A stretch of 64,000 bases of DNA. Origin: Mizuhopecten yessoensis. Its lineage: Eukaryota. The number at the start of each line of letters is the position of its first letter. Positions within the stretch are counted from its first letter, which is position 1. Made by a program: the position numbers and the translations under genes. Below, one piece after another: positions 21,350 through 60,800 of the stretch. The stretch is taken from contig NW_018405640.1 in assembly GCF_002113885.1 (NCBI RefSeq), positions 193,220-257,219 of the forward strand. Direction: 5' to 3'. The notes beneath the pieces are model-generated. The model was not told the DNA's origin. It saw nothing but the letters and a program-made list of their open reading frames with translations, and did no database searches.

Positions 21350-23900
21350 ATATACACCTCTAGTACTATATCATTTTTATAACTATAACCTCCAAAGTAA
21401 TAAATATGTGTTTATATGTCCCGTACTCTATAATTTATATCATTATAAGCTCCAAAGTAATACATATGTATTTACATCACCAGTACTATACAATTTATAA
21501 CACTATAACCTGTAAAGGAATGAATATGTATTTATATCTCCCGTACTGTATAATTGATATCATTATAAGCTTAAAAGAAATGAATATGTATTTATATCTC
21601 CCGTACTCTATAATTATCAACTTAATAACCTCCAAAGAAATAAATTTGTATTTTTACCTCCTGTTCTACATTGTTTCGTAATTATAATCTCCAAAAGAAT
21701 AAATTTGTATTTTTACCTCCTGTTCTACATTGTTTCGTAATTATAATCTCCAAAAGAATAAATTTGTATTTTTACCTCCTGTTCTACATTGTTTCGTAAT
21801 TATAATCTCCAAAAGAATAAATTTGTATTTTTACCTCCTGTTCTACATTGTTTCGTAATTATAATCTCCAAAAGAATAAATTTGTATTTTTACCTCCTGT
21901 TCTACATTGTTTCGTAATTATAATCTCCAAAAGAATAAATTTGTATTTTTACCTCCTGTTCTACATTGTTTCGTAATTATAATCTCCAAAAGAATAAATT
22001 TGTATTTTTACCTCCTGTTCTACATTGTTTCGTAATTATAATCTCCAAACGTATAAATACGTATTTTTACCTCCTGTTCTACATTGTTTCGTAATTATAA
22101 TCTCCAAACGAATAAATATGTATTTTTACCTCCTGTTCTACATTGTTTCGTAATTATAATCTCCAAAAGAATAAATTTGTATTTTTACCTCCTGTTCTAC
22201 ATTGTTTCGTAATTATAATCTCCAAACGTATAAATACGTATTTTTACCTCCTGTTCTACATTGTTTCGTAATTATAATCTCCAAACGAATAAATATGTAT
22301 TTTTACCTCCTGTTTTACATTTGTACATTGTTTCGTAATTATAATCTACAAATGAATACATATGTATTTTACCTCCTGTTCTACATTTTTTCGTAATTAT
22401 AATCTATAAATGAATAAATATGTATTTTACCTCCTGTTTTACATTTGTACATTGTTTCGTAATTATAATCTCCAAACGAATAAATATGTATTTTTACCTC
22501 CTGTTCTACATTGTTTCGTAATTATAATCTCCAAACGAGTAAACATGTATTTTTACCTCCTGTTTTACATTTGTACATTGTTTCGTAATTATAATCTACA
22601 AATGAATACATATGTATTTTACCTCCTGTTCTACATTTTTTCGTAATTATAATCTATAAATGAATAAATATGTATTTTACCTCCTGTTTTACATTTGTAC
22701 ATTGTTTCGTAATTATAATCTCCAAACGAATAAATATGTATTTTTACCTCCTGTTCTACATTGTTTCGTAATTATAATCTCCAAACGAATAAATATGTAT
22801 TTTTACCTCCTGTTTTACATTTGTACATTGTTTCGTAATTATAATCTACAAATGAATACATATGTATTTTACCTCCTGTTCTACATTTTTTCGTAATTAT
22901 AATCTATAAATGAATAAATATGTATTTTACCTCCTGTTTTACATTTGTACATTGTTTCGTAATTATAATCTCCAAACGAATAAATATGTATTTTTACCTC
23001 CTGTTCTACATTGTTTCGTAATTATAATCTCCAAACGAGTAAACATGTATTTTTACCTCCTGTTTTACATTTGTACATTGTTTCGTAATTATAATCTACA
23101 AATGAATACATATGTATTTTACCTCCTGTTCTACATTTTTTCGTAATTATAATCTATAAATGAATAAATATGTATTTTACCTCCTGTTTTACATTTGTAC
23201 ATTGTTTCGTAATTATAATCTCCAAACGAATAAATATGTATTTTTACCTCCTGTTCTACATTGTTTCGTAATTATAATCTCCAAACGAATAAATATGTAT
23301 TTTTACCTCCTGTTCTACATTGTTTCGTAATTATAATCTCCAAACGAATAAATATGTATTTTTACCTCCTGTTTTACATTTGTACATTGTTTCGTAATTA
23401 TAATCTACAAATGAATACATATGTATTTTACCTCCTGTTCTACATTTTTTCGTAATTATAATCTATAAATGAATAAATATGTATTTTACCTCCTGTTTTA
23501 CATTTGTACATTGTTTCGTAATTATAATCTCCAAACGAATAAATATGTATTTTTACCTCCTGTTCTACATTGTTTCGTAATTATAATCTCCAAACGAATA
23601 AATATGTATTTTTACCTCCTGTTCTACATTGTTTCGTAATTATAATCTCCAAAATAATAAATTTGTATTTATACCTCCTGTTCTACATTGTTTCGTAATT
23701 ATAATCCCCAAACGAATAAATATGTATTTATACCTCCTGTTCTACATTGTTTAGTAATTATAATCTCCAAACGAACGAATGTGTATTTATACAAATATAT
23801 ATAAATTTGTATTTATACCTCTTGTTCAACATTCTTTCGTAATTATAACCTCCAAAAGCAAGAATATGTATTTTTACCTCCCGTACTCTACTGCTTAATT
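21350..23900. repeat. 59-bp satellite array (~40 units) with an internal 250-bp higher-order repeat
   Basis: Unit ATTATAATCTCCAAAAGAATAAATTTGTATTTTTACCTCCTGTTCTACATTGTTTCGTA. The 250-bp period shows as near-identical spurious ORFs at 22410, 22660 and 22910. Flanking units are diverged. Confidence 0.95.
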
Positions 23901-26642: not shown

Positions 26643-28295
26643 ATGGCGTCCGAGGACGTGTGTGATGGGGACACTACTTTGTCTCTGCTGTTGTGCAGCG
26701 ACTGTGAAACTGAGGAACATGTTAACTGGTTCTGTCAGGAATGTCAACACAACTTTTGTGATAAGTGTAAAGATCATCATTTAAGAAGAAAGAAATCGAG
26801 AACGCATTCAATTGTTCCGTTTCGAGAAGCCAAATACAGACCGGTATACATTAACAAGGCCTTGTGTGGCGTGCATCCGGGTGAATCCCTTGACTACTGG
26901 TGTGAGGACTGTGATGTTACAATTTGTGTGAAATGTATACCTGATCGACACAAGAAGCATAGCTGGTGCACTGTGGACGATTTCAGGTGCCGTGTCCAGG
27001 TAAATATCCATAGTAAAATAGACGAGTTCAGAGAAACATTGCTGAAATACAGAGGTGTGATGAACGATGATTCAAAATTCTCAGAATACATGAACTGTTG
27101 TATAGATCATCTCAAGGAAGATGTGAACAACCAAGCAAGCACCTTATGTCTAGAGGTAAACAAAAAGAGAGACGAAGTTTTGAACGAAGTCACCATTTTC
27201 GAGAATAAAGCAAAGATACAACAAAATCAAAGTAAGCTCAAGATGACTGAAGATATGGCAGCTTTAAATGAATTAATCACAAACACAGAACAATCCCTAA
27301 AAGGTTGTGAATCTTCGTCGTCTCTGTCTGTTTTATTGAAAACTATTGAAGATACTTCTGGGTGTTTCCAAAGTCCTGAAAGCGTTCGACGCCAACCGCC
27401 AACTTTAAGTAAACCAGAATATGTTGACCAATCAAAGTTGGTGTCACTGTTTGGTCAGCTGGAATATCCATCCTCCCAAAAACTAGAAGAGAGAGTGAAA
27501 TACGAGGTGAAAACAAAATACTTAAAAACAAAAACAATAAGGAAGATCCTGGCCCTCTGTGTTCTAGACAATGGTAACATCTGGGTTTCATTTGACGGGA
27601 ATCGGTTTTTAATGTTAATAGACGGATACTTGAATGCGATAAAGAAATCCTGTGACACAGAGAAAGGAGTGGTCAGTATGGCTCTTTATAAAAACACAGA
27701 CTTAGTGTTCACGCGATTCATGGACACTAGCGTGCAGCGAATCGGTTGCCATGGCGACAAAATGGTAACTATTGCTGATCTCGATCCTTACTACACAAAG
27801 GGCATAAGCGTAAACAATGAAAACAGACTTTTAGTCTGTGCTGTAACTACGACATGTAGCAAAATTGTGAAAATGACAGGGAGGGGTCAAATTCTCTTAG
27901 AAATACCAATCGACCGGAACGACATTGAAACACTTACTCGACCATATAGAATTACCAGTTTTGATACCGGTGAGATGTTTGTAGTTGACACAGCAAAAGA
28001 CGACCACCGTGTAACGTGTTTAGCTAAGCAAGGGGAACGTTTGTTTTCGTGGTCTTGGCGAGGTGAAGGAGTCGGTACAGTGGAACCGTTGGGGATAACC
28101 AATGACAAAACGGCGTGTTATATTACAGATGAAAAAAATAATAGGATTTACGTGTTACCAAAGAACGGAAATACAGCAGCCGTGTTGCTGGACGAGAGTA
28201 GCCGACAGACAGGACCAAGATGCATAACTATTGACCGGAAGGGATGTTTGTGGGTAGGGTGCAATAACGGTGTCATTCTAAAGATTGAGAGATAA
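26643..28295 (+). CDS. RING-less tripartite-motif-like protein, paralog of 18151-19938 (550 aa)
   Basis: CSDC..WFCQECQHNFCDKCKDHH and CGVH..YWCEDCDVTICVKCIPDRHKKH B-boxes. Shares DDHRVxC, WRGEGVG, GPRCI and WVGCxNG with the first copy. Probable 5'UTR acceptor TTTTCAG ending at 26523. Confidence 0.9.
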   Translation: MASEDVCDGDTTLSLLLCSDCETEEHVNWFCQECQHNFCDKCKDHHLRRKKSRTHSIVPFREAKYRPVYINKALCGVHPGESLDYWCEDCDVTICVKCIPDRHKKHSWCTVDDFRCRVQVNIHSKIDEFRETLLKYRGVMNDDSKFSEYMNCCIDHLKEDVNNQASTLCLEVNKKRDEVLNEVTIFENKAKIQQNQSKLKMTEDMAALNELITNTEQSLKGCESSSSLSVLLKTIEDTSGCFQSPESVRRQPPTLSKPEYVDQSKLVSLFGQLEYPSSQKLEERVKYEVKTKYLKTKTIRKILALCVLDNGNIWVSFDGNRFLMLIDGYLNAIKKSCDTEKGVVSMALYKNTDLVFTRFMDTSVQRIGCHGDKMVTIADLDPYYTKGISVNNENRLLVCAVTTTCSKIVKMTGRGQILLEIPIDRNDIETLTRPYRITSFDTGEMFVVDTAKDDHRVTCLAKQGERLFSWSWRGEGVGTVEPLGITNDKTACYITDEKNNRIYVLPKNGNTAAVLLDESSRQTGPRCITIDRKGCLWVGCNNGVILKIER

Positions 28296-29529: not shown

Positions 29530-30130
29530 TTGACAGTACCCCCAAGATCGCCAAGTGAAATCGAGTGAGAGGTAGACCAACTAACGGACGACGAGTGTGC
29601 AGACCAACCTCGCGCAATCGGTTCCTTGCAGATTGCATACCGTATTAATAGCGGTTTCAATGACATCAACGTGGCGATTACGCAGATGGGCAAGACGAAT
29701 AGCCCTGTCCTGACGTCGCGTCGTTACGCGCGGACGTCCCGATCGCGGTCGGTCGGCAACCCTTCCGGTATCTCTCGGACGACGGTCAAGACGTTCTATG
29801 GAAACATTCACACCGAACTGCATAGCAACATGTTGTTGCATTTGACCTTGCATTAGCAGTGCAATAGCCTGGCCCCTCTGAACTTACGTCAGCCGTACCA
29901 CGATTGCAAGAGATTCAAATTGACTTTAAATAGCGGAAAGCGGTGTATATACATCAATAGTATCAAGTGGTAAGACAGGATGTGTTGACGAATTTGTCAT
30001 CACTATTCTGCACGTGTTTTTTTTTTTTTTTTTGCATTTTACCATTTTCACTATTTGGCACACACAATTGAGTAACTTTAGACAACGGTTTGAGTGCACA
30101 GTGACCAAGAAACTCGTCTGACTGGTTTTC
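29530..30130 (-). mobile_element. Degraded Tc1-family transposon remnant
   Basis: Translation ..QGQMQQHVAMQFGVNVS..TGRVADRPRSGRPRVTTRRQDRAIRLAHLRNR.. is homologous to the N-terminus of the 14228-14908 transposase. Contains a stop and frameshifts; the ends are uncertain. Confidence 0.8.
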
Positions 30131-32133: not shown

Positions 32134-35100
32134 TTACCCAATGGTCCCCTGGCTGTAGTCGTTTCTGAAACATAAAGATATTAATGTTACTCTAGAAGGA
32201 TAAAACAGTGTTTATATTACTAAATTTTAAAGGTGAAGTCACTTGTGCGTGTGTCTTTCTTCTTTCCATATACAAGGTGCTAAATTCGGCTGGTGAATTT
32301 GTTAGTCCCCGAAGTTTGCCGTAACCTTGATGGACACCATTATCTCTTTTGAGTAGTGTCACGCTTCATAATATAACACTTTTCTCATTATCAATATGAC
32401 ACTGAACTTTCTCCTCTTATTTTTGAAACTTATATGATTAAGAGGATTGTGTATCTCCCCTCTCTGGTTCAACAGTAGTTAAGACCAATTTGGATTTCCA
32501 CTCTGTTGGCCCTGCCGCCACCGATGATTCATAGAAAGAAGACACAGATGCATGGAGCCCCGTACTTCATTTTGGCATACTGTATCAATTACCAAATTGT
32601 ATGGAAGCAATCACAAACATAATTCTGAAATACTTTTAGTTTTGCGTTAAAGTAATAAACAGTCTGTGAACACCATACCATCGTACGAAGCCGCATGGCA
32701 GCAAGTCCACGGTAGGTGTACAAACAGAGACAATGTGGTAAAGATATTCAATAAATATCAACAGATCGTCTACACAGTTCACCAATGTCAATTAACCACC
32801 TTCATTTTCACGAATATTAGTAGATCACCTACACATTTTCACGAATATTTGTAGATCACCTACACATTTAACAAATATCAATTGACCACCTACATTTTCA
32901 TGAATATTAGTAGATCACTTACACATTTAACAAATATCAATTGTCCACCTACATTTTCACAGATATTAGTAGATCACCTAAACATTTAACAAATATCAAT
33001 TGACCACCTACATATTTCATCAATATTAATAGTTCACCTACAAATTCAGGAGTAGCAGTAGATCATTCACAAATCATCTAACGATGGCTCTAAACGTTCT
33101 TAACATTTCTATGTCTAGAACAGAATGTACCCTGTCACTTTCATCACAAAGTTATTTTTAGATGAAGGTGACAGTGCATATCGAACTAGTCCTCGAAACG
33201 CTTCATTGGTTGTGCTAAAAGAAACTGTATGCAATATATCTAACGATGCTTGATAAATTGCTAAATGTGTAGATAATCTGTTACAAGTATATGTCAAGTT
33301 TATATGAAACTGTAAAAAGTCTTACTCAATTTCACAGACAAACGGAAGTGACGTATTGCATGGAACATCGTTCCAAAAACCTGACAGTGTTAAGGCCAAG
33401 CAATCCTCCCTCCCGTAATGGTCGTTTGGTTCCCCGGGACCCCAGTGCGAGTTGGTGATTGAATCAAATGAACTGGCCCACTCCCATTCTCCTTCAACAA
33501 AGAAGTCGGCCCCTCCTAAATAGTATTCACCTTGGGTTACTGAAATGACAGGAACAAAGCTATGACAGAAATGTGGAAAGATAGCAAAACCATATTTGTG
33601 TCTTTACGAGTGAAAGCACGTGACGTGTTTTGTGATCTGTTGTGACCTGTTGTGCTTTCAGCTAAATGTTCCAATAGACAATTGATGAACACATAACAAT
33701 AAAAATGTGTTTGCCAGAAGCGATGTCTAAATAATTTCGAAAATACAATTGTTGAAATACGGAAAAATGCCTTATAAACACTTTACGGCATTACAAGTTT
33801 ACAACATTTTGCGACTAGAGATAATATATTCTCAGACTAACATTTCATGTTAGCTGGGCTGTGTCAGAATAAATTCAAGCCACAAGCATGGAATATGTTT
33901 GTTAAAATTTAAATTTTGTTATTATAATTATGGTTTGCTAATAAGAAATTTTGGAAAATCAGGCCTTTTTCTGACACTTGTTTACTTACCATGTTTATCT
34001 CTAACCTCTCCGTCTAGGAAAACTACATCTATTGAATCTCTCGGTTCTGCAAGTTTTCCGCGGAAATTTCGACAGTAACTCTGTAAAAATGATAAATTAA
34101 AGCATATGAATTTGGAGAAACAAAACGTGCACGTGTCTATCAATATTTCTATCGAATTATGCTGATTTTTTAAGTTGCAATAGTTTTCAGAAATATCTTA
34201 CCTTATTAAATATTACTTATACATGAATAACGTATATCCTTTAAATCATACAGATACTTAAAGGACAAATTTATGATGAAACTTTAATAAAGGGCACATT
34301 TGTCTTGGCTTATTTAGCTTGAGGGTTCCTATAATCCAGATAGCCATGTTCGAAAAGCAATACAGTAAGCCATGTGTTTTATTACCAGTTTGTTGCTTTT
34401 TGCTCAGTGGACATAGTTTAAATGGTTTAAAGAATACAAATGAATGTTTCACACAAAATCATTGAGGCAGGGCCTGCTGGAAAATTATTTCGCTACGATA
34501 TCTGGACTCTTAAGATATTCAGTTCTCATTATTATATAGAAAAATCCTCCAAGCGCACGATTCTTGCAAGATTCTTGTTAACATCAGTATTACTCCCTGC
34601 ATAGCAAAGTACTGTTTTAGACAAACATTCGTGAAAATGGAATGCAATGGCCAACAAGAGAAGGACGCAAACATATATTTACATATATTCATGGATCACG
34701 TCTCAAAATTTTATATGTAAAGATGTGGAGAAAACTAAATCCTTGTATATCATGGTATATTTTCATATGGTGCAAAATGATCAAAATTTCCATCACTTTG
34801 TACCAAGGCACACCAGGATATAAAATAGTATCTTCCTGTCCGGTCGCTGTCGGTCATTGTAATGAAATGATATAAAGAGTTAACTCACACCAGCGTCGGC
34901 CCAAGATCCTACCACCACGCTGAAGAAGTAGCAACGTTCTCCGTGTGCAGTCCAACCTGACGGACACGCTACAACATACATAACCATATTATTCGGCAAA
35001 TGAACTAGTGGAAACATTCAGTTTGAACATGAGAGAAAAAAAAGAAAAACAACAACAAGTACAGATGTGTAAACAACCCTAAACAAGCTCAAAATCGATA

Positions 35101-38209: not shown

Positions 38210-41200
38210 CTATCCGATTGTTTCCTGGCCGAAGTCATTTCTGAAATAAACACAGACTTGCAATCAGTGCTCTATTATATACAAGAACGTGTTAGTACAT
38301 CATTAATGGCTGTCTAGCAAGATACGTGTACTAGAACGTTTCTACATAAAAGGAAATGGTCAATGGTCAATCTGGCAAAACTCGCTCAATTGGTAACGGG
38401 ACACTTGCATACTTTGTCAAAACTGACTCAGTCTTCATGAACATTGGGGAAAATCGTATTTGAATAAAATCGAGGCAGATTCATTTAATGTAATCTAATA
38501 ACGGTTGAAATATTTTGCTTCAATTTCCGAGCGACAATAAGTTTCAATTGTTATTTTGAACATTTATAACGAAGGTCAACCAATTTGGTGGTGAAAGAAG
38601 GGAATTTACACAAAATTGTTTGGAGCATTTCGTTTAGGAATCATGTTAATGCAATGATAATAATAAAATTACAGTAATGAAAACTATTTCGGCTTTTTGC
38701 ATAATACCATATCTTCAGGTGTGACATTGAATAATATTTTCAAGGCAAAATAAGTGTTGTATCCATGTGACTCATGACTCATTTAAACAGCAAATATAAA
38801 TCAAGTGTGATCTTATTATACTACAAATGACAGTTCGACTGAGCACCGTAAGTACTTACTCAAGTTCGCACACAAACGGAAGTGATATATTACAGGGAAC
38901 GTCATTCCATAAACCACTTAATACCACACCCAAACAATCCTCTCTCCCGGCTAAGTCATTTGGTTCCCCTGGTGACCAGTTGGCATTAGTGATTGGCGAC
39001 AAAGTGCTAGCCCAAATCCATTCTCCTTCAATGAAGAAGTCACCTCCTCCTAAATAGTATTCACCAATCCTTGCTGGTTTGGCAACACAAGAAGAAAAAT
39101 ATACCACAATGTATACAACACCTTAATTCAAAATCAAAATCGACGAAACTAGAGTTAATTAAGAGTACATGAATACTTACACAGAGATAATAAATAACAC
39201 CAATAAGACCACATGTTCCTAAAGGGTAAGCGTCCTTTGATGAAGTAGGTCAAAATATAATACCATTTAGCCGGGTTTTTTGCTGGATTTGTATATTTTT
39301 TTTATTTCGCTGTGAATACATTTATTCGCGAAAACAGAATTCTTGTAATAATATGGCACGAGTAATTATAATCCACGTTATAAAATACAATGCAGTCTAG
39401 TATTGCAACTGGATCAGGATCGTCCTTATCAAGCATGTATGTAAGTTCTCAAGCGATCCAGGAATATCATTCGCTAAGCGTTATTATTTAAAACAGTATA
39501 GTAAACATTTGGATAAGTTTATGTTTATGTACAGATGATACATTGATATTTGTTTAAAAATAAAACCAAGAGAATTTCAGAAGTGTACCGGAATATATGT
39601 TAAAAAGTTGACATCGGGACAATATTTATACTAAAACACTCCATATCTGCAAATCACTAAATTTGAAAGCGTGTGAATTAAATTTTCGTGTTGGAGTAAA
39701 AAATTAGAATATTTAAAGCCGGGAGAAAAGCGACCTATATAGTAATGTCACGCTCTCAAAGAGGGAGATTGGGCAGTGACAACGGAATAACAAGGCACAC
39801 AAGGAAATAGAATGAGAACATAATGGCAAATTTATCTCATATCGGAGATCAAATTTCAATTTTGATTAATGAGTTAATTGAAAAATAGTTTATATTGACA
39901 TATCAACTTACGATGTGTGCTTTTTACCGCTGTGTCAATGAAAACAACGTCAGCGGCTTCCATAGGTTCTGCAAGTTTTGCGTTGAAATTCCGGCAATAA
40001 CTCTACAAAATTGAAAACAAATAAATATTTAACTTAAATGAGGAATTATCAACTTTAATACAATGGCACTGGTATCAGATACGATAAAAAATATGTGTCG
40101 AACATAAAATGAGGTTCCTGTACAAAGATGGGCGAAACGGTGAGAACATGTAGTGCAGAAAAAAAGGGTTTACTTTGTTTGCCTTTCGGCATCGGTTTAC
40201 TTATTATAAGATATGTTTCCTTACTCCGTGTTTCTGTTGATTGCCAACCAGGGTAAGATACTAACTATTAAATATGTTTCCTACTCAGTGTTTCTATTGA
40301 TTACCAACCAGGGTAAGATACTTACTATTAAATATGTTTCCTACTCAGTGTTTCTATTGATTACCAACCAGGGTAAGATACTAATAATCGAATATGTTTC
40401 CTTAATCCAGGTTTAGATTGATTACCAACCAGGATAAGATACTTATTATTAAATATGTTTCCTTACTCCGTGTTTCTGTTGATTACCAACCAAGGTAGGA
40501 TACTAATTATCAAATATGTTTCCTTACTCCGTGTTTATATTGATTACCAACCAAGGTAAGATATAAATTATTAAATGTGTTTCCTTACTCCGTGTTTATA
40601 TTGATTACCAACCAAGGTAAGATATTAATTATTAAATATGTTTCCTTACTCAGTGTTTCTATTGATTACCAACCAGGGTAAGATACTAACTATTAAATGT
40701 GTTTCCTTACTCCGTTTTTATATTGATTGCCAACCAGGATTAGGTACTTATTATAAAATATGTTTCCTTACTCCGTGTTCATATTGATTACCAACCAGGA
40801 TAAAATACTAATTATTGAATATTTTTCCTCACTCCGTGTTTATATTGATTTCCAACCAAAGTAAAATACTAATTATTAAATATGTTTCTTTATTCCGTGA
40901 TTATATTGATTGCCAACCAGGATAAGATACTAATTATCTAATATGTTTCCTTACTCCGTGTTTATATTGATTACCAACCAGGATAAAATACTAATTATTG
41001 AATATGTTTCCTTACTCCGTGTTTATATTGATTACTAACCAGGATAAAATACTAATTATTGAAAATGTTTCCTTACTCCGTATTCTATGGATTACCAACA
41101 AGGATAAGATACTAAGCGATAAATTTGCACGAATTCATTCGAGAAAAATGTCGACAAAATATTATTTCTGGAGACTCTAGCTTAAAGGTATATGCTTTTT

Positions 41201-42756
41201 TTTAAGTTGACTTAAAATACTCCAAGCCAAAAGAGTTCTATTGTGATTATCAACTTACGAATTGTAATTTTAAGGATCAGCCCATGAAATTTGTGCTTAT
41301 ATTGTGTTATTGAGGAATAGTTTAGGCCAAACAAATAAACATGTTTGTTTCCTGTATCATGTGTGAAAAATAATCAGTTGGTGGGTAACAAATTGTATTT
41401 TTCATTATATTTCAATAAACATGTATTTTGTTAAGGCTTATAAAGAGTAATATGGAGTTTACCAGTGCATCCTTGAAAACTGCCAAAAAGGGTTAAGGGT
41501 AGGCACAAAAAGTAGGGTAGGAAGGGTAGGTAATTTCTACTAAGAATATTAGCCCAAGGGTGATAACTCTTATACCAATCCCACATAGAGTGGGTATGAT
41601 AAAACATGTATTTCTTTAAATTCGAAGATTCACTTGTCAGAAAAATGTGTATGTCAAAGTCTGTTAACTTTTCCTGCAATGGTGTCTGATTAAAAGATTT
41701 GCCTTTTAATTATTCATCCTGAATTGAACGGAAACTTGAAATTCTCTACAAAGTAATGATACAGTGTTCTCACAAAAGCGTCAGCCCATGACCCTGTCCA
41801 AATACTGAGGAAAAGGGAATAATACACAATTAATTAACAGGCAACGTCCTCCAACGACGATGTACAAAAACTGAACAAAATGAACAAACAATTCACTCAC
41901 ACCGGCGTACGCCCACGTCCCTGTTTCTAAACTGAAGAAGTAACAGTGTTCTCCATTTTCTTTCCATCCTGGGGGGCATGCTAAAAAATATAATAAGTAA
42001 ATCACGAATTAATGAAATACAGTAACGTCTGGTTGGTCCTGATAAATTCAGAAAAAAAGGAAAAACCGAGAGAGAAAAAAGTATGTAAGCACACGAATGC
42101 AACATGGGCATCATCAACCTCTACCCCAGGGAATGAGAGCAGGGTCTGTAATCATGCTCGACTAGGCCAATTATCTTGGGTCAGTGATAAATCAATAAAC
42201 GGACATTTTGTCATTTGGCTATACATGTTGACTATGCTGCATGATTTCCTATGAGTTAGAACAGTTATGTATCAGCGCTTACAGAACTGTTGAGCGTAAA
42301 AATGGTTTCAAGAACACGGGGTAAGGTTTCACCTCAAACATTTTGTAGTGGTCCAGGATATTTTTATTTTTGCTTTGTTGACTCCTCAATTCATTTCTCG
42401 TTTTTTTTCGACTTTGATTTCATACTTTGTGCTTATCTATTGAAACTGTGCTTGTATATATAAAAGAAATGTGATCAATAAACACATGAAATAAATGTGA
42501 TAAGTGAACATAAGTACTAATGATACATATGTATCGTAAATGTAATTCATGAACGTAAGTATTTAACGTAAGCAATGAGCATACATCCTAAACGATACAA
42601 AAACGAACCTATATCAGAACCGTTACAAGTATTAAACAAAAATATATATATAAACTACGTGACACATCAACATATGTATAAAGAATGTCAAAATAACATT
42701 TTACCTTGAATCAACGGTGCCAACACAGTTATAAGTGATAATATGCTCCTCATCAT
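38210..42756 (-). CDS. Secreted single-domain C-type lectin (perlucin-like), paralog A, 155 aa, 5 exons
   Basis: Exons 42705-42756, 41901-41980, 39912-40002, 38860-39073 and 38210-38240, with the same sizes as paralog B (52/80/91/214/31). MMRSILSLITVLAPLIQA signal; WSPGEPND, WNDVPC; ends NDFGQETIG*. AATAAA near 38153-38158 (minus strand). Confidence 0.93.
40200..41120. repeat. 59-60 bp minisatellite (~15 copies) in intron 2 of lectin A
   Basis: Unit AATATGTTTCCTTACTCCGTGTTTATATTGATTACCAACCAGGATAAGATACTAATTATTA. Confidence 0.92.
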
Positions 42757-47439: not shown

Positions 47440-49905
47440 TTTTCATTTCAGAATATTTTATTGTACTGATCTTATGTACAAAAGGAATTGGGCAACAGGC
47501 ATAGCCTATATAAGCCCTCTCCTTACAAAACATAACAGTATATACATATCATATAAATGTTACTTTTACAGATGTTTCTTTAAGTATTAAAATAAGAGAT
47601 TATTTGTACTTTGAATTTGATTTGACAATACATATTTCAAATATCACAATTGTTATAAAAGAGATTATTTTACAAAGTTATTTGAGAATCTAATAAAAAC
47701 GTCTAGTGTCTCTAATGTAATTCTGAACCGTCTCCACAATATTTATATTCATATTTACGTCTCGTGATTGGAAACCATAAATAAAAGTTTGGGTATTGAG
47801 TGGAATAGCATCACTCATCGCTGACAGAGAGTTAAGTAATATTAGTCGTTGGTTAGTATAAAAAGGACAGTGCAGGAAAAAATGATCACGATCTTCGAAG
47901 GGGGAGCCACATATACAAGCAGGGCTATCATTTAGATGTGCATTAAATAAATCTGAATTTAAATTACTTGCAGAATTTCTTAACTGACATAATGTTATGT
48001 TAATTTTTCTATCACCGTGATATTTACAAATGTTACTACATATTGGGTGAACATCATCCATATGGGATGAACGTAAACATTCCTTTTTCAGAGCTCCAAG
48101 AGATGTCATAGTGGGAAACAGACAGGCTGGATTGTTCCATTCTGACATCAGTTTTGGAAAATAACTAGAGTTATATAAATGCGTTCTTGGTACTGGAATG
48201 TCAAATAACCTATTGTGTCGAAAGTTGTAATGTTCAAAGTTATTAAGAAAGGGCAGTATCAAGTCTGAGACATGAGATGGACAATTGTTATTAAAGAATT
48301 TAAAAAATGCAATATTTTAATGTAAATGTCTTCTTTTACTAAGTTTAACAAAGCCAGTCTCTCTATATAAAATGTTATGGCTCGTTCCTCGTCTTAAACC
48401 AGAAATAATGCGTGCTGCTTCAAGTTGGATTGACTCTAAGACGTTGCACTCTCTCTGGGAACAGTTAGCCCATACAATATCAGCATATTCGAGGATTGGA
48501 CGAACATATGATATATATATTGTTTCAAGGGATTTTCTATCAATCTTAAATTTTAACATTCTAAGTATATTCAGTCTTTTATATGCTTTTTCATAAATAT
48601 AATTTATATGAGTTGACCAGTTGGCTTTGCCATTGAAAATAAGACCAAGGTGTTTATGATCAATAACGTTACAGTATTAATAACTGCATTATTAAAAAAT
48701 AGATTAGGATGCAACGTCTCAGAGTCGACCCGCCTTGAGAAAAGTAGAGCCTCCGTTTTATCCGGATTGAAGATGATACCCCATTTATCAGCCCAGATAG
48801 AGATTTTACGTAAGTCTTCATTTAGTATGTCAGCAGCTTCCTGTCTGTTTCCCTCTATCAATGCATATAACGATGTGTCGTCAGCGAAAAGCTTGACATT
48901 AGAGATTAAAATTTCTCCGATATCATTTATGTACAGTAAAAATAAAAATGGCCCTAAAACTGACCCCTGTGGTACCCCCGCCTTTAACGTTTTCCAGTTA
49001 GATTTAAATCCATCAAAGACCACACTCCGTCTCCTATCAATTAAATACGAAGAAAACCATTTCAAAATATTACCACAAAACCCATATTTTTTAATTTGAA
49101 AATTAAACCATCATGCCAGACCCTGTCGAAAGCTTTGCTGATGTCACAAAATATCATTCTAGCCTCTTTACCTTTATCCAAGTGCTTTACAATTGCATCA
49201 TATATAACTAATAATTTATAGACAATTGAATCTTTAGGTAGAAACCCTGATTGATTCTTAGAATCAATATTATATCTTGAGAGATAATTAAACATATATT
49301 TAAAAACATTTTTTTCAAGAATTTTACTAAAAATAGGAGTAACAGAGATTGGTCTATAATTAGATGGGTTACTTCTTGCACCCTTGTACGTGTACACGGG
49401 TGTAACATGAGCATTGTTCCATGCAGAAGGGAGAATACCGGAGGAAATAGATTTATTGAAGATAAGTAAGAGAGGTCTTAATATAGATTGAGATACCCCT
49501 TTAATAAATTTTGGAGGGATGGAATCAGGGCCTTGGAGTTTATTAGTATTGAGTAGGTGAAACTGGTCAATGATGTCCTGTTCTGTAATGTCAAATGTCG
49601 AGAAGCTGTGCTCTGGCCGGTTACAGTCGGTTGGCAAATCATCAGCATTCTTTCCGGTCTCAGATATTGATGAAAAATAATCGTTAAAAGATTCAGCTTT
49701 GTCGACGGGATGTATTTTGAGTATGCCATTAATAACCAAAGGAGAGTCAATTTCACATTTATTTTTAAGATTCATAACAGATTTTGCAACACGCCACCAT
49801 TTCCTCGGGGGTATGGATTTGTCTATTAGAGAAGATTGTAATTTTGAAAGATATTTTTCTTTGGCCTCACGTATTGATAAAATTACTTCATTCCGAATAG
49901 TTCTG
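47440..49905 (-). mobile_element. 5'-truncated CR1-like LINE with frameshifted reverse transcriptase; 9-bp TSD ATGAATATC
   Basis: ORF pieces contain NYRPIS, DISKAFDRVWH, GVPQGSVLGPFLFLLYIND, LFADD and a C-terminal CxC..H..C motif. AATAAA plus (TGAAA)n tail. ATGAATATC at 47431-47439 and 49906-49914. Confidence 0.93.
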
Positions 49906-50549
49906 ATGAATATCAGCTGTTTCAATTTTTCCACAATGAAGAACGAAACTGATAAAGTTGGTTTGAAATAGTACATATATACAATTGTACGTCTCCGGTA
50001 GAATGTAACTAGGCAGAACACGATTGTTTTGTTTTTTTATAGTTTTGTTTTTAATTTGTTAATGAAAAATGAAAATATTACTTATACAAATATAAGTACA
50101 CACTCTCTTTTGCAACACACATATAGCACAATGGATCTTGTTGGATGTTTTGTTCAATCTACTGCACGCGTGTATAATTATAACCTAATTATCTTATACA
50201 CTTATACATATTATCTAAAATATACAAATACATGCCTTCAATACATACTATAGATATGGTAAGTTATCGATCTACGGCACAAGAATTATGTCCCAAACTT
50301 CAAGCGAATTGCAACAGATCTTATTTTTTTCATTTCTATCTTTACGAATATTACATAAAAAGTAGATATTTTACTTTAAAATTTGTCAAATAAGTGACTT
50401 TCGTGAAAGAAATTTGGGGGGGGATGTTTTTTGGGGCGAAATATTTGGGGCGTAATAGATGTTTGGAGCGAATTGGTTTGGGCGATATGAATCAGCTTGG
50501 GGCGTTTCGGTTTTGGGGCGAATCGTCAGATGTTTCGGCCCCAAAAACG

Positions 50550-51870: not shown

Positions 51871-54800
51871 ATGGAGGCTGTGCCTCGGATGCCGATGTTA
51901 TCGTTTGAGTTGAAACAAAGTCCAGAATATGTCGATTTCGGTCCGGTTTTAAAACAGGTGAGAAACTTAAGAGTTAACTCTCGAGTTTGATGTCAAAGGT
52001 GACACGTTTTTCTTGCTCGATATCTTCCTCTCACTTAAAACAACATCGATGTTTTGAGGTTGTTGACATCCCAATATTTTGACGTAAAACGCTAATGTGT
52101 CATTTTTGGGTGTTTGTATCACGAACGCCTTCTTAAGAAGTCTTTAAACGTAAATTCGCACTTAGATCACTATTATATAATTATGAACTTAGATTAGAGC
52201 GTTATTGGATCATTGCATGCAATTTTGCCGACGAATATGACTCATTATCATGCCGGTTGAATTACGTGAATTACACCTAATACTATTCCAGTCATATCCT
52301 AATAGTCATGAGACTAGTGTTGCCTCGGGCTCAGGAAGTTAACATTTGAACTCTTTTCATTTAGAATAAGATGATTATTTCAATTGTGTTATGACGTTTT
52401 TTTCTGTTAGAATGACGAGATTCTCCATTTGGTTCACTAACAAATATTCATTCTATATATTTATATAAAATGTTACAATTTTTTACAGACCATAACAGAT
52501 GACACAAAAATAAGTAAAACCAGTGTCAACTGACCCCTGTTTAATCCGGATGCATGTCTATTCCGGCTTTGATATCTGGTCCCATTATTTCCTTTCTTAG
52601 AAATAACACTCTTGAAATCAAACAAAACTATTTATCAATTTGCAGCGTGGCACCATGCTCCTAGAATTTCTTGCCATGCTGCTATCCTAGATCTTCTCTA
52701 CTATATATTCATAGTAAATCTCAAGTAACCAAGCTGCTTTAATTAAACACATAGAGTGCTGCTTTAACAGAAATATTGAAACACCATGCTTCTAGCTTTC
52801 AAATCATTCTGGGGAGAACACTGATCTTGTTGTATATATAATGTTATATAAATAATGATTAATATGCCCTACATTTATTCTGGCCTTTCTATTTTCCTCA
52901 CTCTTCTAGATCTGTCCCTGTAAAAGTCTTTCCCAGATGTAAAATATACAATATGTTGACTTTTGTTTTAACATATTGCAAATAATTAAACATTACTATG
53001 AAATATCTTCTTTATTTTCTGTTCTCACATCAGTGCTATATTTATTTCAAATATTTTAACTTACATAGTTAACAGGCGAGAGAGTAGTGTGCTTCCACCG
53101 GCGATTGAACCCGCAATCCCAGACTTAATAATCGGACGCTCTACCACTGAGCTAATTAAGGGAAACTCCCTGTAGTGCAAAGCTAGAAGGTGACCGTTAT
53201 CATATGTACAATAAGAATCTGTGACACTATATATAGATTCCCCCTTTTTTAAATGTGTTCATCCTCAAACACCACAACAACCCAGGTTCTAACTCCCTGT
53301 CTGACACCACAGGGAGGGCCACGGACCCCATTTGTAACAGGAAATAGAGTTGTGTGCTAGCTTCCTCCAGGGATTGAACCTGCAATCCCAGACTTTCTAG
53401 TCGGATTCTACCACGAACTAAGGGAAATTCTCTCAAGTGCAAAGCTAAAAGGCCACCGTAATCATATGTACAATAAAAATCCGCCACACATATAATGTTT
53501 AAAATGTTGATACCCAACTATAGCAGTGTGGTGAACCAGATTAATAAGGTGGCAGATGAAGAAGTTCATTCAGAAAATTTCTGTCGAAAACAATTTCAGT
53601 ATAACAGTCAATGACATGCTAGATTTTTGAACACTAAAAATATATATGCAAGACCACACACTTGTGTTTTTCTAACGAATCAGAAAGCACGAGTTTACTG
53701 CGCGGATGTATATATTCGTCCGCGCAATAAGTGAGTGCTTTCTGATTCGTTAGAAAAACACAAGTGTGTGGTCTTGCTTTTATCACATACCTTCCGTATT
53801 TTGTAGAGATCGATACAAAGATTTAATAAACTTTGTTGATATTTTTTGCAAATACCGGGAACTTTTCAGTTCTCCATGACAAGGGGATTCCCATAAAAAG
53901 TAGTTCAAGCTAGTAGGTAAATACAACATTCGGTATTGCACGTGTGTAATACAGAACGTTGTATTTCATGGCCTGAAAATTGGTTGTATTACTATAACAA
54001 GATTCAACAGGTATGTGATAAAATGTAATATTATATTATTCGGGCAAATTCTTTTTTTGGACATGTGAATCAATGCAGGGGTGTACAATATCATATTTAG
54101 AATAATAGCCCTCGGGTTGATTTTAAAAAGTTACACAAAGTCAAACTATATTTTAACTGTAAATTTTGAACATTTCCCCTAGCCACAATGTAAAACCTAC
54201 CAGCCATGGGTGTCAGCTGGCTATTGGTGGAAATGTACGTGGAAATGTACACCCCTGAAATGTTTAAACAATTTTCCAAGGCACTGATAAAACCACGTTT
54301 GGAATATATGCAACAAAGTGTTTTGAATAAGATTCATACAAGTTAAAAGACATCCAAATGGTAGAATATATATGTACAATGATGAGGATACCTGGATTCA
54401 AAGAACTTTTGTATGGAGAACACCTAGAAATGATGCAGTTCCCAACAACGAAGTGCAACCGGACAGGGTTAGACACTCAATATACATATAAGTCACAAAA
54501 ACGATCTTTTTCTCACGTTTCTTTTTTTTTTAGTACATTCGTGATAACTATGGAGAAGACCCAGCCCAGTACAACAAGGCGTGTAACGACTTGGAACAAC
54601 TCAGACAGGTAAGATATAGCATATACCTGTGACATCATACGTAACTGATCTAAGACACATATATGATAATATGAGATTGTGATATCAAAGATAATGCTAA
54701 TAACTCCTGTTTTTGGTTGCAGTAATAATTCATCATTTGGGGTAGTTTCAGTATGTAATAATCAAGGAATAAAGGAATCTCAACCCCACAAGGACGTTTC

Positions 54801-57800
54801 GTGTTATGTACGGTCTACATGTTTCGGCCTGCTATACGTATACGGCCATCATCGGGACCCTGTGATGTAATGAATAGAAGATTTAGTGTTTTTTTCTCGG
54901 CGATTATACATGGTACATTTCACTAATGTAGAATATATGTAGAATAATTTTCATTTGTGCTTTGTAACTGTGAAAAATTTCTGTATTCTACCGCATCTTA
55001 CGTACTCATGAAATTAATATGGTATTCAATGATCAGAAATCATTGAATATTGTTTTTATATCAACTCCATGGTGACTGTTCTACCTTCATTCCATAGCTT
55101 GTGCTATTTTGATGAGGAAAATATTTCACATTTTTACAACAATGGAAAAATATGTATTTCCTCACAACAAAACATAACTATCAGACCTTTTGTCAAAGTG
55201 TTTAATATACATGTATAGCTAGAAAATGGTTTGTATGTGGTGAAATAAATGCATTTTTGATTTGTAACATTTTTTTTTTTATTTTTTTATCTTATTACAG
55301 GAAAATATAGCTGAAAATTATTGAGAAGAAAAGACCAAAATTTGCCCAGAAATATACACATGTACAAAAATAAATAATAACAATTTTGTATTATGTAAAA
55401 TTACAGAGTGCTGTCCATGTTTCGCATGACTTCATGGGATGTAGTACTCTAAAGAAATACTATGCACAGCTACAGTTCCTACAGGGGCGGTTCCCTATGG
55501 GGGAGGGAGGAGAAGCAGCGATACCATTCACCTGGTAAGTACAGTACATTAATGGGGGAGGGAGGAGAAGCAGCGCTACCATTCACCTGGTAAGTACAGT
55601 ACATTAATGTGGGAGGGAGGAGAAGCAGCGATACCATTCACCTGGTAAGTACAGTACATTAATGTGGGAGGGAGGAGAAGCAGCGATACCATTCACCTGG
55701 TAAGTACAGTACATTAATGTGGGAGGGAGGAGAAGCAGCGATACCATTCACCTGGCAAGTACAGTACATTAATGGGGGAGGGAGGAGAAGCAGCGCTACC
55801 ATTCACCTGGTAAGTACAGTACATTAATGTGGGAGGGAGGAGAAGCAGCGATACCATTCACCTGGTAAGTACAGTCCATTAATGGGGGAGGGAGGAGAAG
55901 CAGCGATACCATTCACCTGGCAAGTACAGTACATTAATGGGGGAGGGAGGAGAAGCAGCGATACCATTCGCCTGGTAAGTGCAGTACATTAATGGGGGAG
56001 GGAGGAGAAGCAGCGATACCATTCACCCGGTAAGTACAGTACATTATCTTCTCCCCTACATTAAGGATCATAAAAAAGTATGGCACCTAATCAAAATGAT
56101 CCATTAGATTCTTAACCAATGCCATGAATGTTCAGATTGACACTTTGTGAACAATTAGACTGGAAAGGATTTATAAAGCTGAATGGAAACATTTTAGAAG
56201 TAGGAAGTTTTTATCAGAATCCAATAACTGGTGCATTACAGAAAACATCTATTCTCTAAAGGTTTGGTAGTACACATATTATGGTCAACAATTTCTCTAT
56301 GTATGTAAGATACCCTTTTTCTCTTACCCTGGACAGGTGTATCCACACTTTTACAGGTGTGAGATATCCTTGCCTTTCCCTAGGATTGAAACAGGGGATT
56401 CCCCAATTCATAACAATTGTATGACTGACGTCACGTCAACAATGCATCAACGTCATGTCAACAATGCTTTGAGTCTGTAATGTTAACATTCATTACGTAT
56501 ATGATAGGGTCCAAAGGGTAAAAGAAAAAGACCTATTCTCCCCCTTGAGGTGAGATTAGGAATCTTGACCCTCAACACCCTTAAAGTTTGTGTTTGGAAA
56601 CTGAAGATTCCCCTATCTCACCCACAAGGGGGCCAAAGATTCTGTTAAAGAACAGTCATATGAGTTACATATAACTTTGTCTATACTGCATGGTTGCACT
56701 CAATGGCCTTTATTATTCCCTCGTAACGAAAGTTCCAGGGGATATAGGATTCAGCCTGTATGTACGTATGTACATATGTCACTTCATGTTTCAGGTTACT
56801 GTGTTAAAGGTCAAGGTCAATTTTACTATTTTTATAAAAACTTTGTTATTGCTCTATCAACTTCATTCCTGGTTACTGTGTTAAAGGTCAAGGTCACTTT
56901 TACTATTTTTAGAAAAAATCTATTATCCATCAGAGAATGCAGTCACTAGAACAGATTCTGATACATCATTGAATTTTTATTCATTTCTTCATACGTATGT
57001 TGCACAATCACTTATGATGCCTTGCAATTGTCATACCATGACATCACAATCAGATGAAACCATCTTAAGTATATGAACATCAGTATTATGGCACCAGCTT
57101 GCACTGAAGGTCTTTCACAGATCTCTAACATTGAGTATTATACCTTTGGCTGCTCTTTCCAAAAATAGTCATAGTTTGTGTATACAGTAGGCTTTGCTGA
57201 GTGCTTATCTTCAAAAATCTTATCCCAAGGTCAATATTTCTCTGTCTACATCACACAGGAATGATTGATTATTTTTCTCCCACACTTTTCTACAGTAATA
57301 ATTACAATATAAACCAACATCACTGTGAGCCTTACTTAGCCGGTGTAATGAGTCGGGAGTTCTATTTTCAGGGAGGACATCCACCTCGGCAGAGAGATCA
57401 CGATCGGTGATGTCAAGTTTGAGCAGGCGTGCATCTTGTACAACATCGGAGCTCTCCACGCTATCCTGGGAACCATGGAAACCAGACAGAGTGCTGATGT
57501 AGGTATTGGGATGAGGGATGGTGTGATAGAGCAATTAACCCTAGTATTTTATGCATTGTTTTACTTGGTGACACTTTAATCGACTTCAATTCAACTCACT
57601 CACCCCTGAAATTTCATAATCAACTATTCCAACCTTTGAACTGGAAGAGTTCACATGTGTCTCCAGGGGTGAATGAGTTAAACAAGTTATCAAAAAGTTC
57701 TTTGCAGTATATAGGTTAAAACTGAAAAGCAGTTGTCTATGTTAGAATATTTAATAAGCATTCAAATTTGTATGGGAGAGAGACTGGAAAATATAGAAAA

Positions 57801-60800
57801 TGTACTTCATTGACTCCTTTTGGACAAAATAACTTCATCAAATGTCATAGTTTTAGATTTTCAGTGCAATGACAAAATTCAAGAAAAATGCAAAATGCAG
57901 GAAATTCTACTACTTTCCAAAGTCCAAGATGAAGGTGAAGATACCCTTAAAATCTTGACTGCAAATTTGAAAAATTGATTTATTAGGTAACCAATATAAT
58001 TAAAGGGAGTTAACTCTGCCACAAATTATAGATAATGTTTAAGGTAACATATCACCTTAACTATGACTCCTTCTAACACTGTTTTTCAACTGAAATTTGT
58101 AAACAGCATTGATTGATATTCCCTAAAATAATTTCTGTTTTTAGGGTATGAAAGTATCGTGTACTCACTTTCAGTGTAAAATGATTTCTATTTTTAGGGT
58201 ATGAAGGTATTGTGTACTCACTTTCAGTGTAAAATGATTTCTATTTTCAGGGTATGAAATTATTGTGTACTCACTTTCAGTGTAAAATGATTTCTATTTT
58301 TAGAGTATGAAGGTATTGTGTACTCACTTTCAGTGTAAAATGATTTCTATTTTNNNNNNNNNNNNNNNNNNNNNNNNNNNNNNNNNNNNNNNNNNNNNNN
58401 NNNNNNNNNNNNNNNNNNNNNNNNNNNNNNNNNNNNNNNNNNNNNNNNNNNNNNNNNNNNNNNNNNNNNNNNNNNNNNNNNNNNNNNNNNNNNNNNNNNN
58501 NNNNNNNNNNNNNNNNNNNGTATGAAGGTATTGTGTACTCACTTTCAGTGTAAAATGATTTCTATTTTTAGGGTATGAAGGTATTGTGTACTCACTTTCA
58601 GTGTAAAATGATTTCTATTTTCAGGGTATGAAATTATTGTGTACTCACTTTCAGTGTAAAATGATTTCTAATTTTAGAGTATGAAGGTATTGTGTACTCG
58701 TTTTCAGTGTAAAATAATTTCTATTTTCAGGGTATGAAGGTATCGTGTACAATCTACCAGTGTAAAATAATTTCTATTTTTAGGGTATGAAGGTATCGTG
58801 TACAAACTACCAGTGTAAAATAATTTCTATTTTTAGGGTATGAAGGTATCGTGCACACACTTCCAGTGTGCCTCGTGGGCATTTGAGTACCTACGAGACC
58901 ACTTTGGCTGCTCCCTGATGAGTGCAGATATGTCACACGACCTCTTGACCTTTCAAATGAACCTAATGTTGGTATGTTGGCAAAGTGAATTTATTATAAA
59001 TTAACAGTTATAAGATTTATTTTAGATTGAAAGTCTGTTACTTCAAGGTGACACAGTAAAACTTATAGAATCGTTTTATCAGGATCAGAATTAAAAAATA
59101 ATATATGTAAAAATATAATTCAATAGGTGTAAGTTTCTGCTATAAACTTAATTCAATTTGTTTTAGATAATAACTGGTAGCAAGACCTCATTGAACATGA
59201 TTTTATTTTTTATTAAAAAAAAAAAAAAAAGGAAAAAAAGAGTTTGTGCCTAACTCTCCTTATTCAGATGTTTTAGACTAGTTTATATACAGACAGTTGT
59301 CTGGTCCAGGAGAAATATATCTTTTTATTGAAGGTTTTTTATAAAGTTATAATGATATAAATATAGATAAGGTTTGGGAACAAATTATTTCTGCAAATAA
59401 AGATTTATTACAGAATCAATCGGAAGTTTTTACTTGTTGAACAGTAATATAAATGTTATATTTGAAGGCACAAGCCCAGGAGTGTATTCTGGAGAAGTCG
59501 ATGATTGACAGTAGGAAATGTTCCATCACCGCAAAGGTAGCTGCCCAAATTGTAGAATTCTACCGAATAGCACTGCGTAACCTGGAGACCTGCTATAGTG
59601 ACGGACTCATCAGCTCCAGAAGAAATAAGGTACTGTAGGTTATAAAGCCTTGCTGTTGAGAATATCATTTGGTCATCTATTTCATATATTTGGCATGGAG
59701 CATCCCTTGGCGAAGGAACTTAAAATCTGTTATATAGAAGATTGATATTTTTTTATAAATTTATTTTATAAAATCCCTGTGTTGTCTTTCAAATAGTTAA
59801 AAGAATTATTTTTTTCTATAATAAACAAAGAGTGTGCTTGCTATCATCTTGTCCCTTTCAAAACATTGTAACACAATAGAATGAATATGATTTAACGCTT
59901 GTTTGTAGCAGTGGAAGAAGTTCAATTTTGGACCATATGGGACCTGAAAAGCTGATAAGCTGGTCTTATTCTTTTGATTGTTACATACATCCTTTAAAAG
60001 TGCCCCTTTTCTTTTTTTCCTGTCCGAGAGTGCTATCACTTAATTCATAGTTTGTATCAACTTGCATGTAAAAGGTGCCAAATATAGCATTTTAATAGGA
60101 ATATTGGAAGGTTTGTGTGCTTCTTCTAATTTTCCCGAATTGCTGAGAGCCCCAGGCACTTTTAGATCAGATATGGTAAGAGACCTCCTTGCAGGCAGAG
60201 GGGGGTGCACAGGGACAAGAGGAGTAAAATGCAAAAATTCTGCTCTTTACAGATAAATAGTCAAGCATCCCTTGGCCTAAAAGATTGATTTTCCTCTTTT
60301 AGGAGAAAGTGATTATATCGGCTTTGTTTGTTGTCTCTCCGTTTGATTATTATATAGATAACAAGATTTGTTGATTTTTTTTTATAATAAACAAAGAGTG
60401 TGCTTGTTATCATCTTGTCCCTTTCAAAATATTGTAACACAATAGAATGAATATGAGTTAACACTTGTTTGTAGGAGTGGAAGAAGCGGATGGACATCAA
60501 GATCATGTTTTATCAGTGCATAACCCACTACTACATGGGACGCCAGGCCGAGGAACAGCAGAAGGCCGGGGAAAACCTCGCCTACTACACTGCCTCACGT
60601 GAAAAACTCAACGAGTGTATCAAACTGGCAAAGGTATAAATAGAGCTGAGAAAGTTGTATTAATTCCTTTGTGCATCTTCTTCTTAGGTCACCTGAGCTT
60701 TGCTCAAGTGACCTATTCTTGTCGCTTTCCGTCCGTCCTCGTCCGTCGTGCGTAAACTTTTTACATTTTCAACTTCTTCTCAAGAACCAGTGGATGGATT

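What the first reader, a model, noticed from the sequence alone, without database searches (positions are those of the whole stretch)
55497..56046. Ten tandem copies of a 5' splice site: PTPN23 exon 3 end amplified into its intron
Seen: the last 38 nt of exon 3 plus 17 nt of intron are repeated 10 times. Eight copies keep GTAAGT (the last as CCG|GTAAGT) and two have GCAAGT. Reading through the first donor gives TGG TAA, so use of any downstream donor introduces a stop. The spliceosome must pick the first of nearly identical sites in a conserved ESCRT-associated gene. Inference: either strict first-come co-transcriptional donor choice, or a copy-number-tuned NMD rheostat. The GA-rich unit also resembles exonic enhancers.
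Basis: partly seen in the sequence, partly recalled or inferred. Interest (0 to 1): 0.7.

Follow-up and report, generated by a model that had tools for sequence, protein, structure and literature searches.

The report
Splice-donor "mirage" minisatellite in bivalve PTPN23
The end of one exon of an animal's PTPN23 gene and its splice signal are copied ten times in a row into the next intron, yet the assembled transcript uses the first signal; this is likely a tolerated repeat of a kind known from lancelets, chickens and human genes, and in a sample of this genome about 7 in 100 exon ends but fewer than 1 in 100 exon starts are copied this way.

Summary
Observation confirmed: 10 x 55 nt (38 nt exon 3 + 17 nt intron), 8 GT and 2 GC donors; any later donor gives a stop at codon 98. 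The array is real: DNA runs of two studies hold unit-to-unit junctions. An RNA contig joins exon 3 to exon 4 at donor 1; one of four RNA or probable-RNA runs also holds a faint read-through contig, so a small leak is not excluded. This is a known kind: F7/CBS/6-16 boundary minisatellites, amphioxus 'mirages', chicken 'exon stuttering'; this scan noted it in 139 findings from at least 42 genomes, two in this genome. A gene-specific NMD rheostat is unlikely. New here: in three gene families, 29 of 444 donors but 3 of 443 acceptors carry such arrays (pre-stated replication 14/192 vs 0/191); donors exceed, acceptors fall below, the intronic background. I found no report of that polarity. Locus ordinary; polarity worth a genome-wide test.

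The parts
55497..56046 (+). Donor array: 10 x 55 nt (38 nt exon 3 end + 17 nt intron 3 start); copy 1 is the real junction
55407..55534 (+). PTPN23 exon 3 (128 nt), ends in phase 2
55535..55540 (+). Donor 1, the site used in the RNA contig of X13
   Evidence: one contig runs exon 2 - exon 3 - exon 4
55552..56046 (+). Nine intronic copies: 7 GT and 2 GC pseudo-donors, each would give a stop at codon 98
57372..57498 (+). PTPN23 exon 4
58124..58869 (+). Second array, over the exon 5 acceptor: 53-nt unit (20 nt intron end + 33 nt exon start), 4.3 copies + 166-N gap (58354-58519) + 6.6 copies; 9 readable upstream AG copies, all giving stops
58837..58971 (+). PTPN23 exon 5; its acceptor is the last copy of the second array and the only one that keeps the frame
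51871..51957 (+). PTPN23 exon 1, coding part
54534..54608 (+). PTPN23 exon 2
   Evidence: loose ends
59468..59629 (+). PTPN23 exon 6 (further exons follow to the window's end; no array over their sites)

Best explanation
A 55-base piece spanning the exon 3/intron 3 junction of PTPN23 is repeated ten times, likely from one local tandem duplication that then grew and was homogenised like any minisatellite, and it is likely tolerated because splicing uses the first donor and removes the copies with the intron. Shown: the array, its presence in other DNA samples, the donor-1 join, the stops. Inferred: (1) the donor next to the exon body wins by exon definition and by being transcribed first, as shown experimentally for human F7; (2) rare use of a later donor would be cleared by NMD, as a safety net and not a dial; (3) the locus is one of many: this genome makes minisatellites at a high rate (14-25% of sampled gene DNA), and copies of a donor survive far more often than copies of an acceptor, likely because a copied donor lies behind the true site in transcription order while a copied acceptor lies in front of it.
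For: RNA run X13: a single 3363-nt contig covers exon 3 (55403-55535) with exon 2 letters before and exon 4 letters behind, and nothing else lies on the unit. All 4 of 4 RNA or probable-RNA runs (4 studies) show the join to exon 4, with the T of copy 1-9 and not the C of copy 10 seen in the two runs where the letter is listed; in X13, X14 and X11 the depth over the last unit equals that of the spliced contig alone (my arithmetic on its table 2). DNA runs X2 and X9 hold unit-junction contigs. Precedent: F7 uses only the most upstream of 5-9 identical donors, the others being functional when it is removed (PMC1557585, abstract, introduction, discussion); mirages at both boundaries do not disturb splicing by RT-PCR (PMC3087553 passages). 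Genome sample: 29 of 444 donors, 3 of 443 acceptors; 33 vs 4 without TRF; 30 vs 1 of 434 exon cores without any splice-site scoring; 24 vs 3 contigs of 109. Downstream copies are not purged: 276 of 323 keep GT in 29 arrays.
Against: Run X16 (RNA is a guess) holds a 76-nt unit-to-unit contig at depth 3.2 beside 6.9-15 for the spliced path, with no cover of unique intron or of the acceptor array: pre-mRNA or DNA background of a collapsed array fits, but so does real use of a later donor. All runs are contigs, which drop rare forms, and NMD would hide them. In human 6-16 and CBS two pseudo-donors are used besides the real one (PMC1557585 introduction). Donors carry about 2.5 times more arrays than composition-matched intron positions (33 vs 13.1 expected), which simple tolerance does not explain. 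The exon 5 acceptor array shows that the first site made is not always the one taken; that exon 5 uses the last acceptor is inferred from the frame and from no contig on the first acceptor unit in X14 and X16, not from a direct join.
Confidence: 0.8

Rival explanations
1. Copy-number-tuned NMD rheostat: later donors are used at an appreciable rate, the products are degraded, and array length sets HD-PTP dose.
For: All nine later donors give a stop at codon 98, far upstream of later junctions; 7 of 9 keep GT; faint read-through contig in X16; unit make-up seems to differ between individuals; leaky use is known for 6-16 and CBS (PMC1557585 introduction).
Against: No array contig in X13, none beyond the spliced contig on the last unit in X14 and X11; about 7% of sampled donors have such arrays, so nothing singles out this gene; the stop follows from GTAA in phase 2; copies are near-identical to copy 1, as expected of a young or homogenised repeat.
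Confidence: 0.06
2. The extra donors are mildly useful U1 snRNP landing sites (helping define exon 3 or shielding the intron from premature cleavage), which is why donor arrays are over-represented.
For: Donor arrays exceed the composition-matched expectation (33 vs 13.1); mismatch to copy 1 is about 4% at GT against 11-16% at intron positions +4 to +10.
Against: The low GT mismatch can come from constraint on copy 1 and from how copies were picked; only one poly(A)-type hexamer lies between exon 3 and exon 5 (57999); two of the nine PTPN23 copies have lost GT; a mutational hot spot or longer persistence of exon-anchored arrays explains the excess without benefit. U1 shielding is recalled knowledge, not tested.
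Confidence: 0.1
3. Assembly artefact: one junction copied by the assembler.
For: Fragmented assembly (82,659 contigs) with an N gap inside the neighbouring array; exact copy number is unverified.
Against: Units differ at 7 columns; independent DNA runs of two studies hold unit-to-unit junctions at 3-11 times flank depth.
Confidence: 0.02

Closest known systems
Human F7 IVS7 37-bp VNTR, with 6-16, CBS, LAMIN B2 and PDGF cases (Borensztajn et al. 2006, PMC1557585; abstract, introduction and discussion read)
   Same: First monomer spans the exon-intron boundary; a row of near-identical donors follows; the most upstream one is used; 5-25 copies.
   Different: Invertebrate gene; 38 nt of exon in the unit (F7 has 4); a second array over an acceptor in the same gene; pseudo-donor function not tested here.
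Amphioxus 'mirage' minisatellites (Adh3, globins BflGb6/BflGb9, troponin C, PGBD5; passages of PMC3087553 and PMC3902484 read; the Adh3 paper PMC117041 was not held)
   Same: Tandem copies of exon-intron boundaries, at both donors and acceptors, 10-160 nt units, normal splicing, length variation.
   Different: A bivalve-type genome (earlier scan notes say scallop; not checked by me); here a frequency and a donor/acceptor polarity are measured, which the passages read do not give.
Chicken dot-chromosome 'exon stuttering' (Hron et al. 2026, PMC12954441; abstract, passages, second part of section 7, sections 9 and 16 read; supplements not seen)
   Same: Local tandem expansion of an exon edge with its splice site into the next intron; repeat-rich introns; 3.4% of dot-chromosome introns.
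   Different: Here AT-rich genes on many contigs (29 of 125 sampled blocks), not a GC-rich chromosome class; no split by donor and acceptor in the text read (their supplement lists positions and might allow one).
Internal tandem repeats at exon-intron boundaries of human paralogues (De Grassi and Ciccarelli 2009, PMC2812944; passages read)
   Same: Variable tandem repeats at exon-intron boundaries.
   Different: There they often create new introns or alternative forms; here every alternative form has a stop.

Membership tests
Boundary-spanning minisatellite (mirage / F7 type / exon stuttering) | Head-to-tail array whose terminal unit is the real exon-intron junction | tested here: met
   junction confirmed by RNA contig
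Boundary-spanning minisatellite (mirage / F7 type / exon stuttering) | Copies lie only in the adjacent intron and repeat the splice signal | tested here: met
   7 of 9 intronic copies keep GT; a DNA search of G000 with the flank and three units matched only this place (lower bound)
Boundary-spanning minisatellite (mirage / F7 type / exon stuttering) | Main mRNA uses the authentic, exon-proximal site | tested here: met
   X13 contig exon 2-3-4; X16 path through the same nodes; contigs only, minor forms not excluded
Boundary-spanning minisatellite (mirage / F7 type / exon stuttering) | Length or sequence variation between individuals | tested here: inconclusive
   X2 and X9 contig depths exceed what the assembled allele predicts (4.2 and 2.5 fold) and their exit contig lacks the C of copy 10; collapsed contigs give no copy number
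F7-type oriented donor selection | Pseudo-donors are functional and the next one takes over when the first is lost | not testable with these tools
   needs a minigene
NMD-coupled regulatory splicing (poison isoform) | Alternative form carries a premature stop well upstream of a later junction | tested here: met
   stop at codon 98 for donors 2-10
NMD-coupled regulatory splicing (poison isoform) | Alternative form is made at an appreciable, regulated rate | tested here: inconclusive
   no sign in X13, X14, X11; faint ambiguous contig in X16; no raw reads or NMD-blocked data
NMD-coupled regulatory splicing (poison isoform) | Conservation of the element across species | not tested
   G000 has no relatives in the tool

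The most novel reading that the evidence does not exclude
This genome carries thousands of splice-site arrays with a strong polarity, about 7% of donors against under 1% of acceptors, with donors above and acceptors below the intronic background. That would be a genome-wide footprint of transcription order in splice-site choice (copies made after the true site are harmless, copies made before it are purged) plus a duplication hot spot or retention advantage at exon 3' ends, and would give thousands of natural competition tests between identical donors, including arrays whose later copies match U1 better than the first.
Probability: 0.35. Interest if true: 0.6.

Novelty: new member of a known kind. 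Interest (0 to 1): 0.32.

Why it matters
The PTPN23 array itself is an ordinary example of a described repeat type and most likely changes nothing in the protein. What could matter is the genome-level pattern found while testing it: splice-site arrays are common here and strongly favour donors. If that holds for the full annotation, and in other repeat-rich invertebrates, it makes the old question of how identical splice sites are ranked (transcription order, exon definition or strength) testable with ordinary RNA-seq on thousands of natural cases, and it warns that gene models and short-read mapping in such genomes can be misled at about one donor in fifteen.

Tried and rejected
Assembly artefact: rejected. 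Stop codon as a designed feature: rejected, it follows from GTAA in phase 2. A first crude null suggested no excess of boundary arrays in myosins (7 seen, 4.4 expected, p 0.15); the excess shows in kinases, kinesins and the pooled set. An excess of arrays that merely abut exons (-4 to +20 nt) was strong in myosins and kinases (18 vs 5.0) but did not replicate in kinesins (5 vs 4.3), so I do not claim it. G-richness raises the background rate (1.2% to 5.3% across G bins) but does not account for the donor/acceptor gap (13.1 vs 10.4 expected); no direction bias in control positions (2.1% vs 2.5%). No sign of selection on unit length: 7 of 29 arrays have a 3n step. Amplified donors are not clearly stronger than others (p 0.08), nor younger (p 0.11). 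Lack of RNA cover of unique intron in X16 is no evidence by itself. The rest of PTPN23 could not be followed: the contig ends 2.2 kb past the window. Literature searches that found nothing on bivalves or on donor/acceptor polarity: 0 papers; 0 papers; scan look-ups for polarity gave 0. Not held: the Adh3 mirage paper, Gao and Lynch 2009; subscription papers are not searched, and supplements were not read.

Full report
OBSERVATION. The array is as described: 55497-56046, ten 55-nt units, 96% matches, no indels, 48 of 55 columns invariant. Each unit is the last 38 nt of an exon and the first 17 nt of the intron. Copies 5 and 8 have GC at the donor, the other eight GT. The host gene is PTPN23/HD-PTP: four consecutive exons match consecutive parts of Pfam BRO1 (only one passes the whole-protein cut-off alone), and exons 3 and 4 match only human PTPN23 chains in the PDB. 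Exons 1-6 read open for 238 codons with donor 1; donors 2-10 each give a stop at codon 98. The window lies in a 988-Mb assembly of 82,659 contigs. Earlier scan notes call it a scallop; I did not check that.

IS IT REAL. Sixteen of 18 listed runs hold part of the region; all are assembled contigs, none raw reads. I laid 4 runs in each of two calls (6 different runs of the 18), each time on a stretch holding one unit, so the whole array was never laid. DNA runs X2 and X9 (two studies) each give a 55-nt unit contig and a 60-nt contig that joins a unit's end to the next unit's start, at depths 89 and 66 against flanks of 12 and 8, and 221 and 150 against 29 and 45. The tool warns that this is no copy number; it does show several tandem copies. 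The assembled allele would predict only 4.2 and 2.5 fold for those two contigs, and the exit contigs lack the variant base of copy 10, which hints at allelic variation; this is weak.

WHICH SITE IS USED. In RNA run X13 one 3363-nt contig covers exon 3 with exon 2 letters before it and exon 4 letters directly behind it, and no other contig lies on the unit: donor 1. All four RNA or probable-RNA runs (four studies) show the join into exon 4; in X13 and X11 the listed letter excludes copy 10; in X13, X14 and X11 the depth on the last unit is what the spliced contig alone gives. Against a clean picture: X16 also holds a 76-nt contig that reads through the donor into another unit, depth 3.2 against 6.9-15, while unique intron and the acceptor array have no cover in that run. 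Unspliced RNA or DNA from a collapsed array fits; so does some use of a later donor. Contigs drop rare forms and NMD would hide them, so a leak is neither shown nor excluded.

A SECOND ARRAY. The next intron ends in a 53-nt array (58124-58869, 4.3 copies, a 166-N gap, 6.6 copies) made of the exon 5 acceptor and 33 nt of exon 5. Nine readable upstream copies keep AG; each gives a stop, and only the last (58837) keeps the frame (for the fourth copy the position of the stop depends on the gap). X14 and X16 have no contig on the first acceptor unit, X11 has about eleven times flank depth there. So in one gene the first of ten donors and, by inference, the last of at least ten acceptors are used: in both cases the site next to the exon body. 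That points to exon definition together with, not only, transcription order.

WHAT IS KNOWN. Human F7 intron 7 has a 37-bp VNTR whose first unit spans the donor; only the most upstream site is used although the others work when it is removed; 6-16, CBS, LAMIN B2 and PDGF are listed as similar, the first two with two pseudo-donors in use (PMC1557585; abstract, introduction, discussion). Amphioxus 'mirages' copy both kinds of boundary and do not disturb splicing (PMC3087553 and PMC3902484, passages). Chicken 'exon stuttering' affects 190 of 5,572 dot-chromosome introns (PMC12954441; lead from an earlier scan note). This scan already holds 139 notes on donor arrays in at least 42 genomes and 52 on acceptor arrays in at least 13, with two donor arrays in this genome. 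These are unchecked notes and not support.

HOW COMMON HERE. I took exon matches for three Pfam families in G000: 84 of 85 myosin matches, 66 of 135 kinase matches (short, likely internal exons), 125 of 127 kinesin matches, fetched 1.53 Mb around them, found further exons by tblastn between paralogues, and placed splice sites with a rough weight table recalled from general knowledge. Exon cores lying over 70% inside an array were dropped; of 541 cores, 444 got a donor and 443 an acceptor. Arrays (TRF, period 15-250, at least 1.9 copies) cover 25%, 14% and 20% of the three sets. An array that starts at least 5 nt inside the exon and crosses the site was found at 15 of 252 donors and 3 of 252 acceptors in myosins and kinases. 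I wrote the predictions down before fetching kinesins: 14 of 192 donors, 0 of 191 acceptors (Fisher p 1e-4). Pooled: 29 of 444 and 3 of 443 (p 2e-6), against 15.1 expected in all from the rate deeper in the introns; with five or more copies 16 and 1. Checks: recurrence of the 20-mer over the site, without TRF, 33 of 444 and 4 of 443, control positions 2.1-2.5%; without any splice-site scoring 30 and 1 of 434 cores, 4 skipped because their middle repeats; by contig 24 and 3 of 109 (p 5e-5); composition-adjusted expectation 13.1 and 10.4 (p 3e-6 for the donor excess, 0.02 for the acceptor deficit). Limits: three conserved families, predicted junctions, a short-read-type assembly, and a control that may include decayed array interiors. 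Part of the output was cut; the counts come. In 28 of the 29 sampled donor arrays plus PTPN23, 276 of 323 downstream copies keep GT and 22 of 29 arrays hold a copy scoring equal to or above the first.

MECHANISM. Shown: array, reality, donor-1 join, stops, frequency and polarity in the sample. Inferred: a local duplication over the junction, growth and homogenisation by the usual minisatellite processes (slippage, unequal exchange, conversion; established knowledge); tolerance because the exon-proximal, first-made donor is taken; NMD as a net for mistakes. The acceptor deficit is best read as selection, since a copied acceptor is made before the true one. The donor excess is unexplained: a hot spot at exon ends, longer life of arrays anchored to a constrained copy, or a small benefit from extra U1 sites.

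VERDICT. The locus is a new member of a known kind and probably inert; the rheostat reading has little support. I found no report of the donor-over-acceptor polarity in the searches named under Tried and rejected, which do not cover subscription journals or supplements. Interest 0.32.

Noticed in passing
window 58124-58869: Second boundary array in the same gene, over the exon 5 acceptor (53-nt unit, at least 11 copies, N gap inside); units nearest the exon drift from the upstream ones.
   Followed up: partly
L139 (G000:C76746:1037998-1039734, minus strand): Kinase donor array, 62 nt x 28; 23 of 27 later copies score above the first, whose last exon base departs from the usual kinase Gly codon. 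Either a sharp test of the first-donor rule or an assembly error in copy 1.
   Followed up: no
L170 (G000:C2573, 70 nt x 22): Kinesin donor array whose unit is almost all exon (69 nt) plus the donor; 20 of 21 later copies score the same as the first.
   Followed up: no
L152 (G000:C123:668700-670460, minus strand): Kinase donor array of 121-145-nt units that also hold an AG after a pyrimidine run, so each unit looks like a small pseudo-exon.
   Followed up: no
L121 (G000:C3644:133826-134874, minus strand): Two neighbouring kinase exons both carry donor arrays (44 nt x 8.5 and 64 nt x 6.4).
   Followed up: partly
L041-L217: Tandem repeats of period 15-250 cover 14-25% of the sampled gene regions; G-rich intron positions start arrays about four times as often as G-poor ones.
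   Followed up: partly
window 18151-19944 (-) and 26643-28295 (+): Two long single-exon ORFs (597 and 550 codons) with Cys/His-rich N-termini that look like B-box/TRIM-type genes (name recalled, not scanned).
   Followed up: no
window 33322-33603, 38856-39122, 41781-42008 (-): Exons that look like duplicated C-type lectin domains (recalled motif, not scanned).
   Followed up: no
window 14228-14911, 29581-29883 and 47690-50036 (-): Broken ORFs that look like a Tc1-type transposase and a LINE reverse transcriptase (recalled, not scanned).
   Followed up: no
window 15193-15786, 21363-23792, 32753-33046, 40198-41115: AT-rich minisatellites (periods 81, 59, 59/90, 61) with no exon link seen by eye.
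   Followed up: partly
L007:1-781 and L008:4207-10000: A long 114-nt tandem repeat that may be coding on the minus strand (charged residues).
   Followed up: no
window 57588-57686: A short element in intron 4 with a very large number of matching contigs in all four RNA or probable-RNA runs: a high-copy repeat.
   Followed up: no
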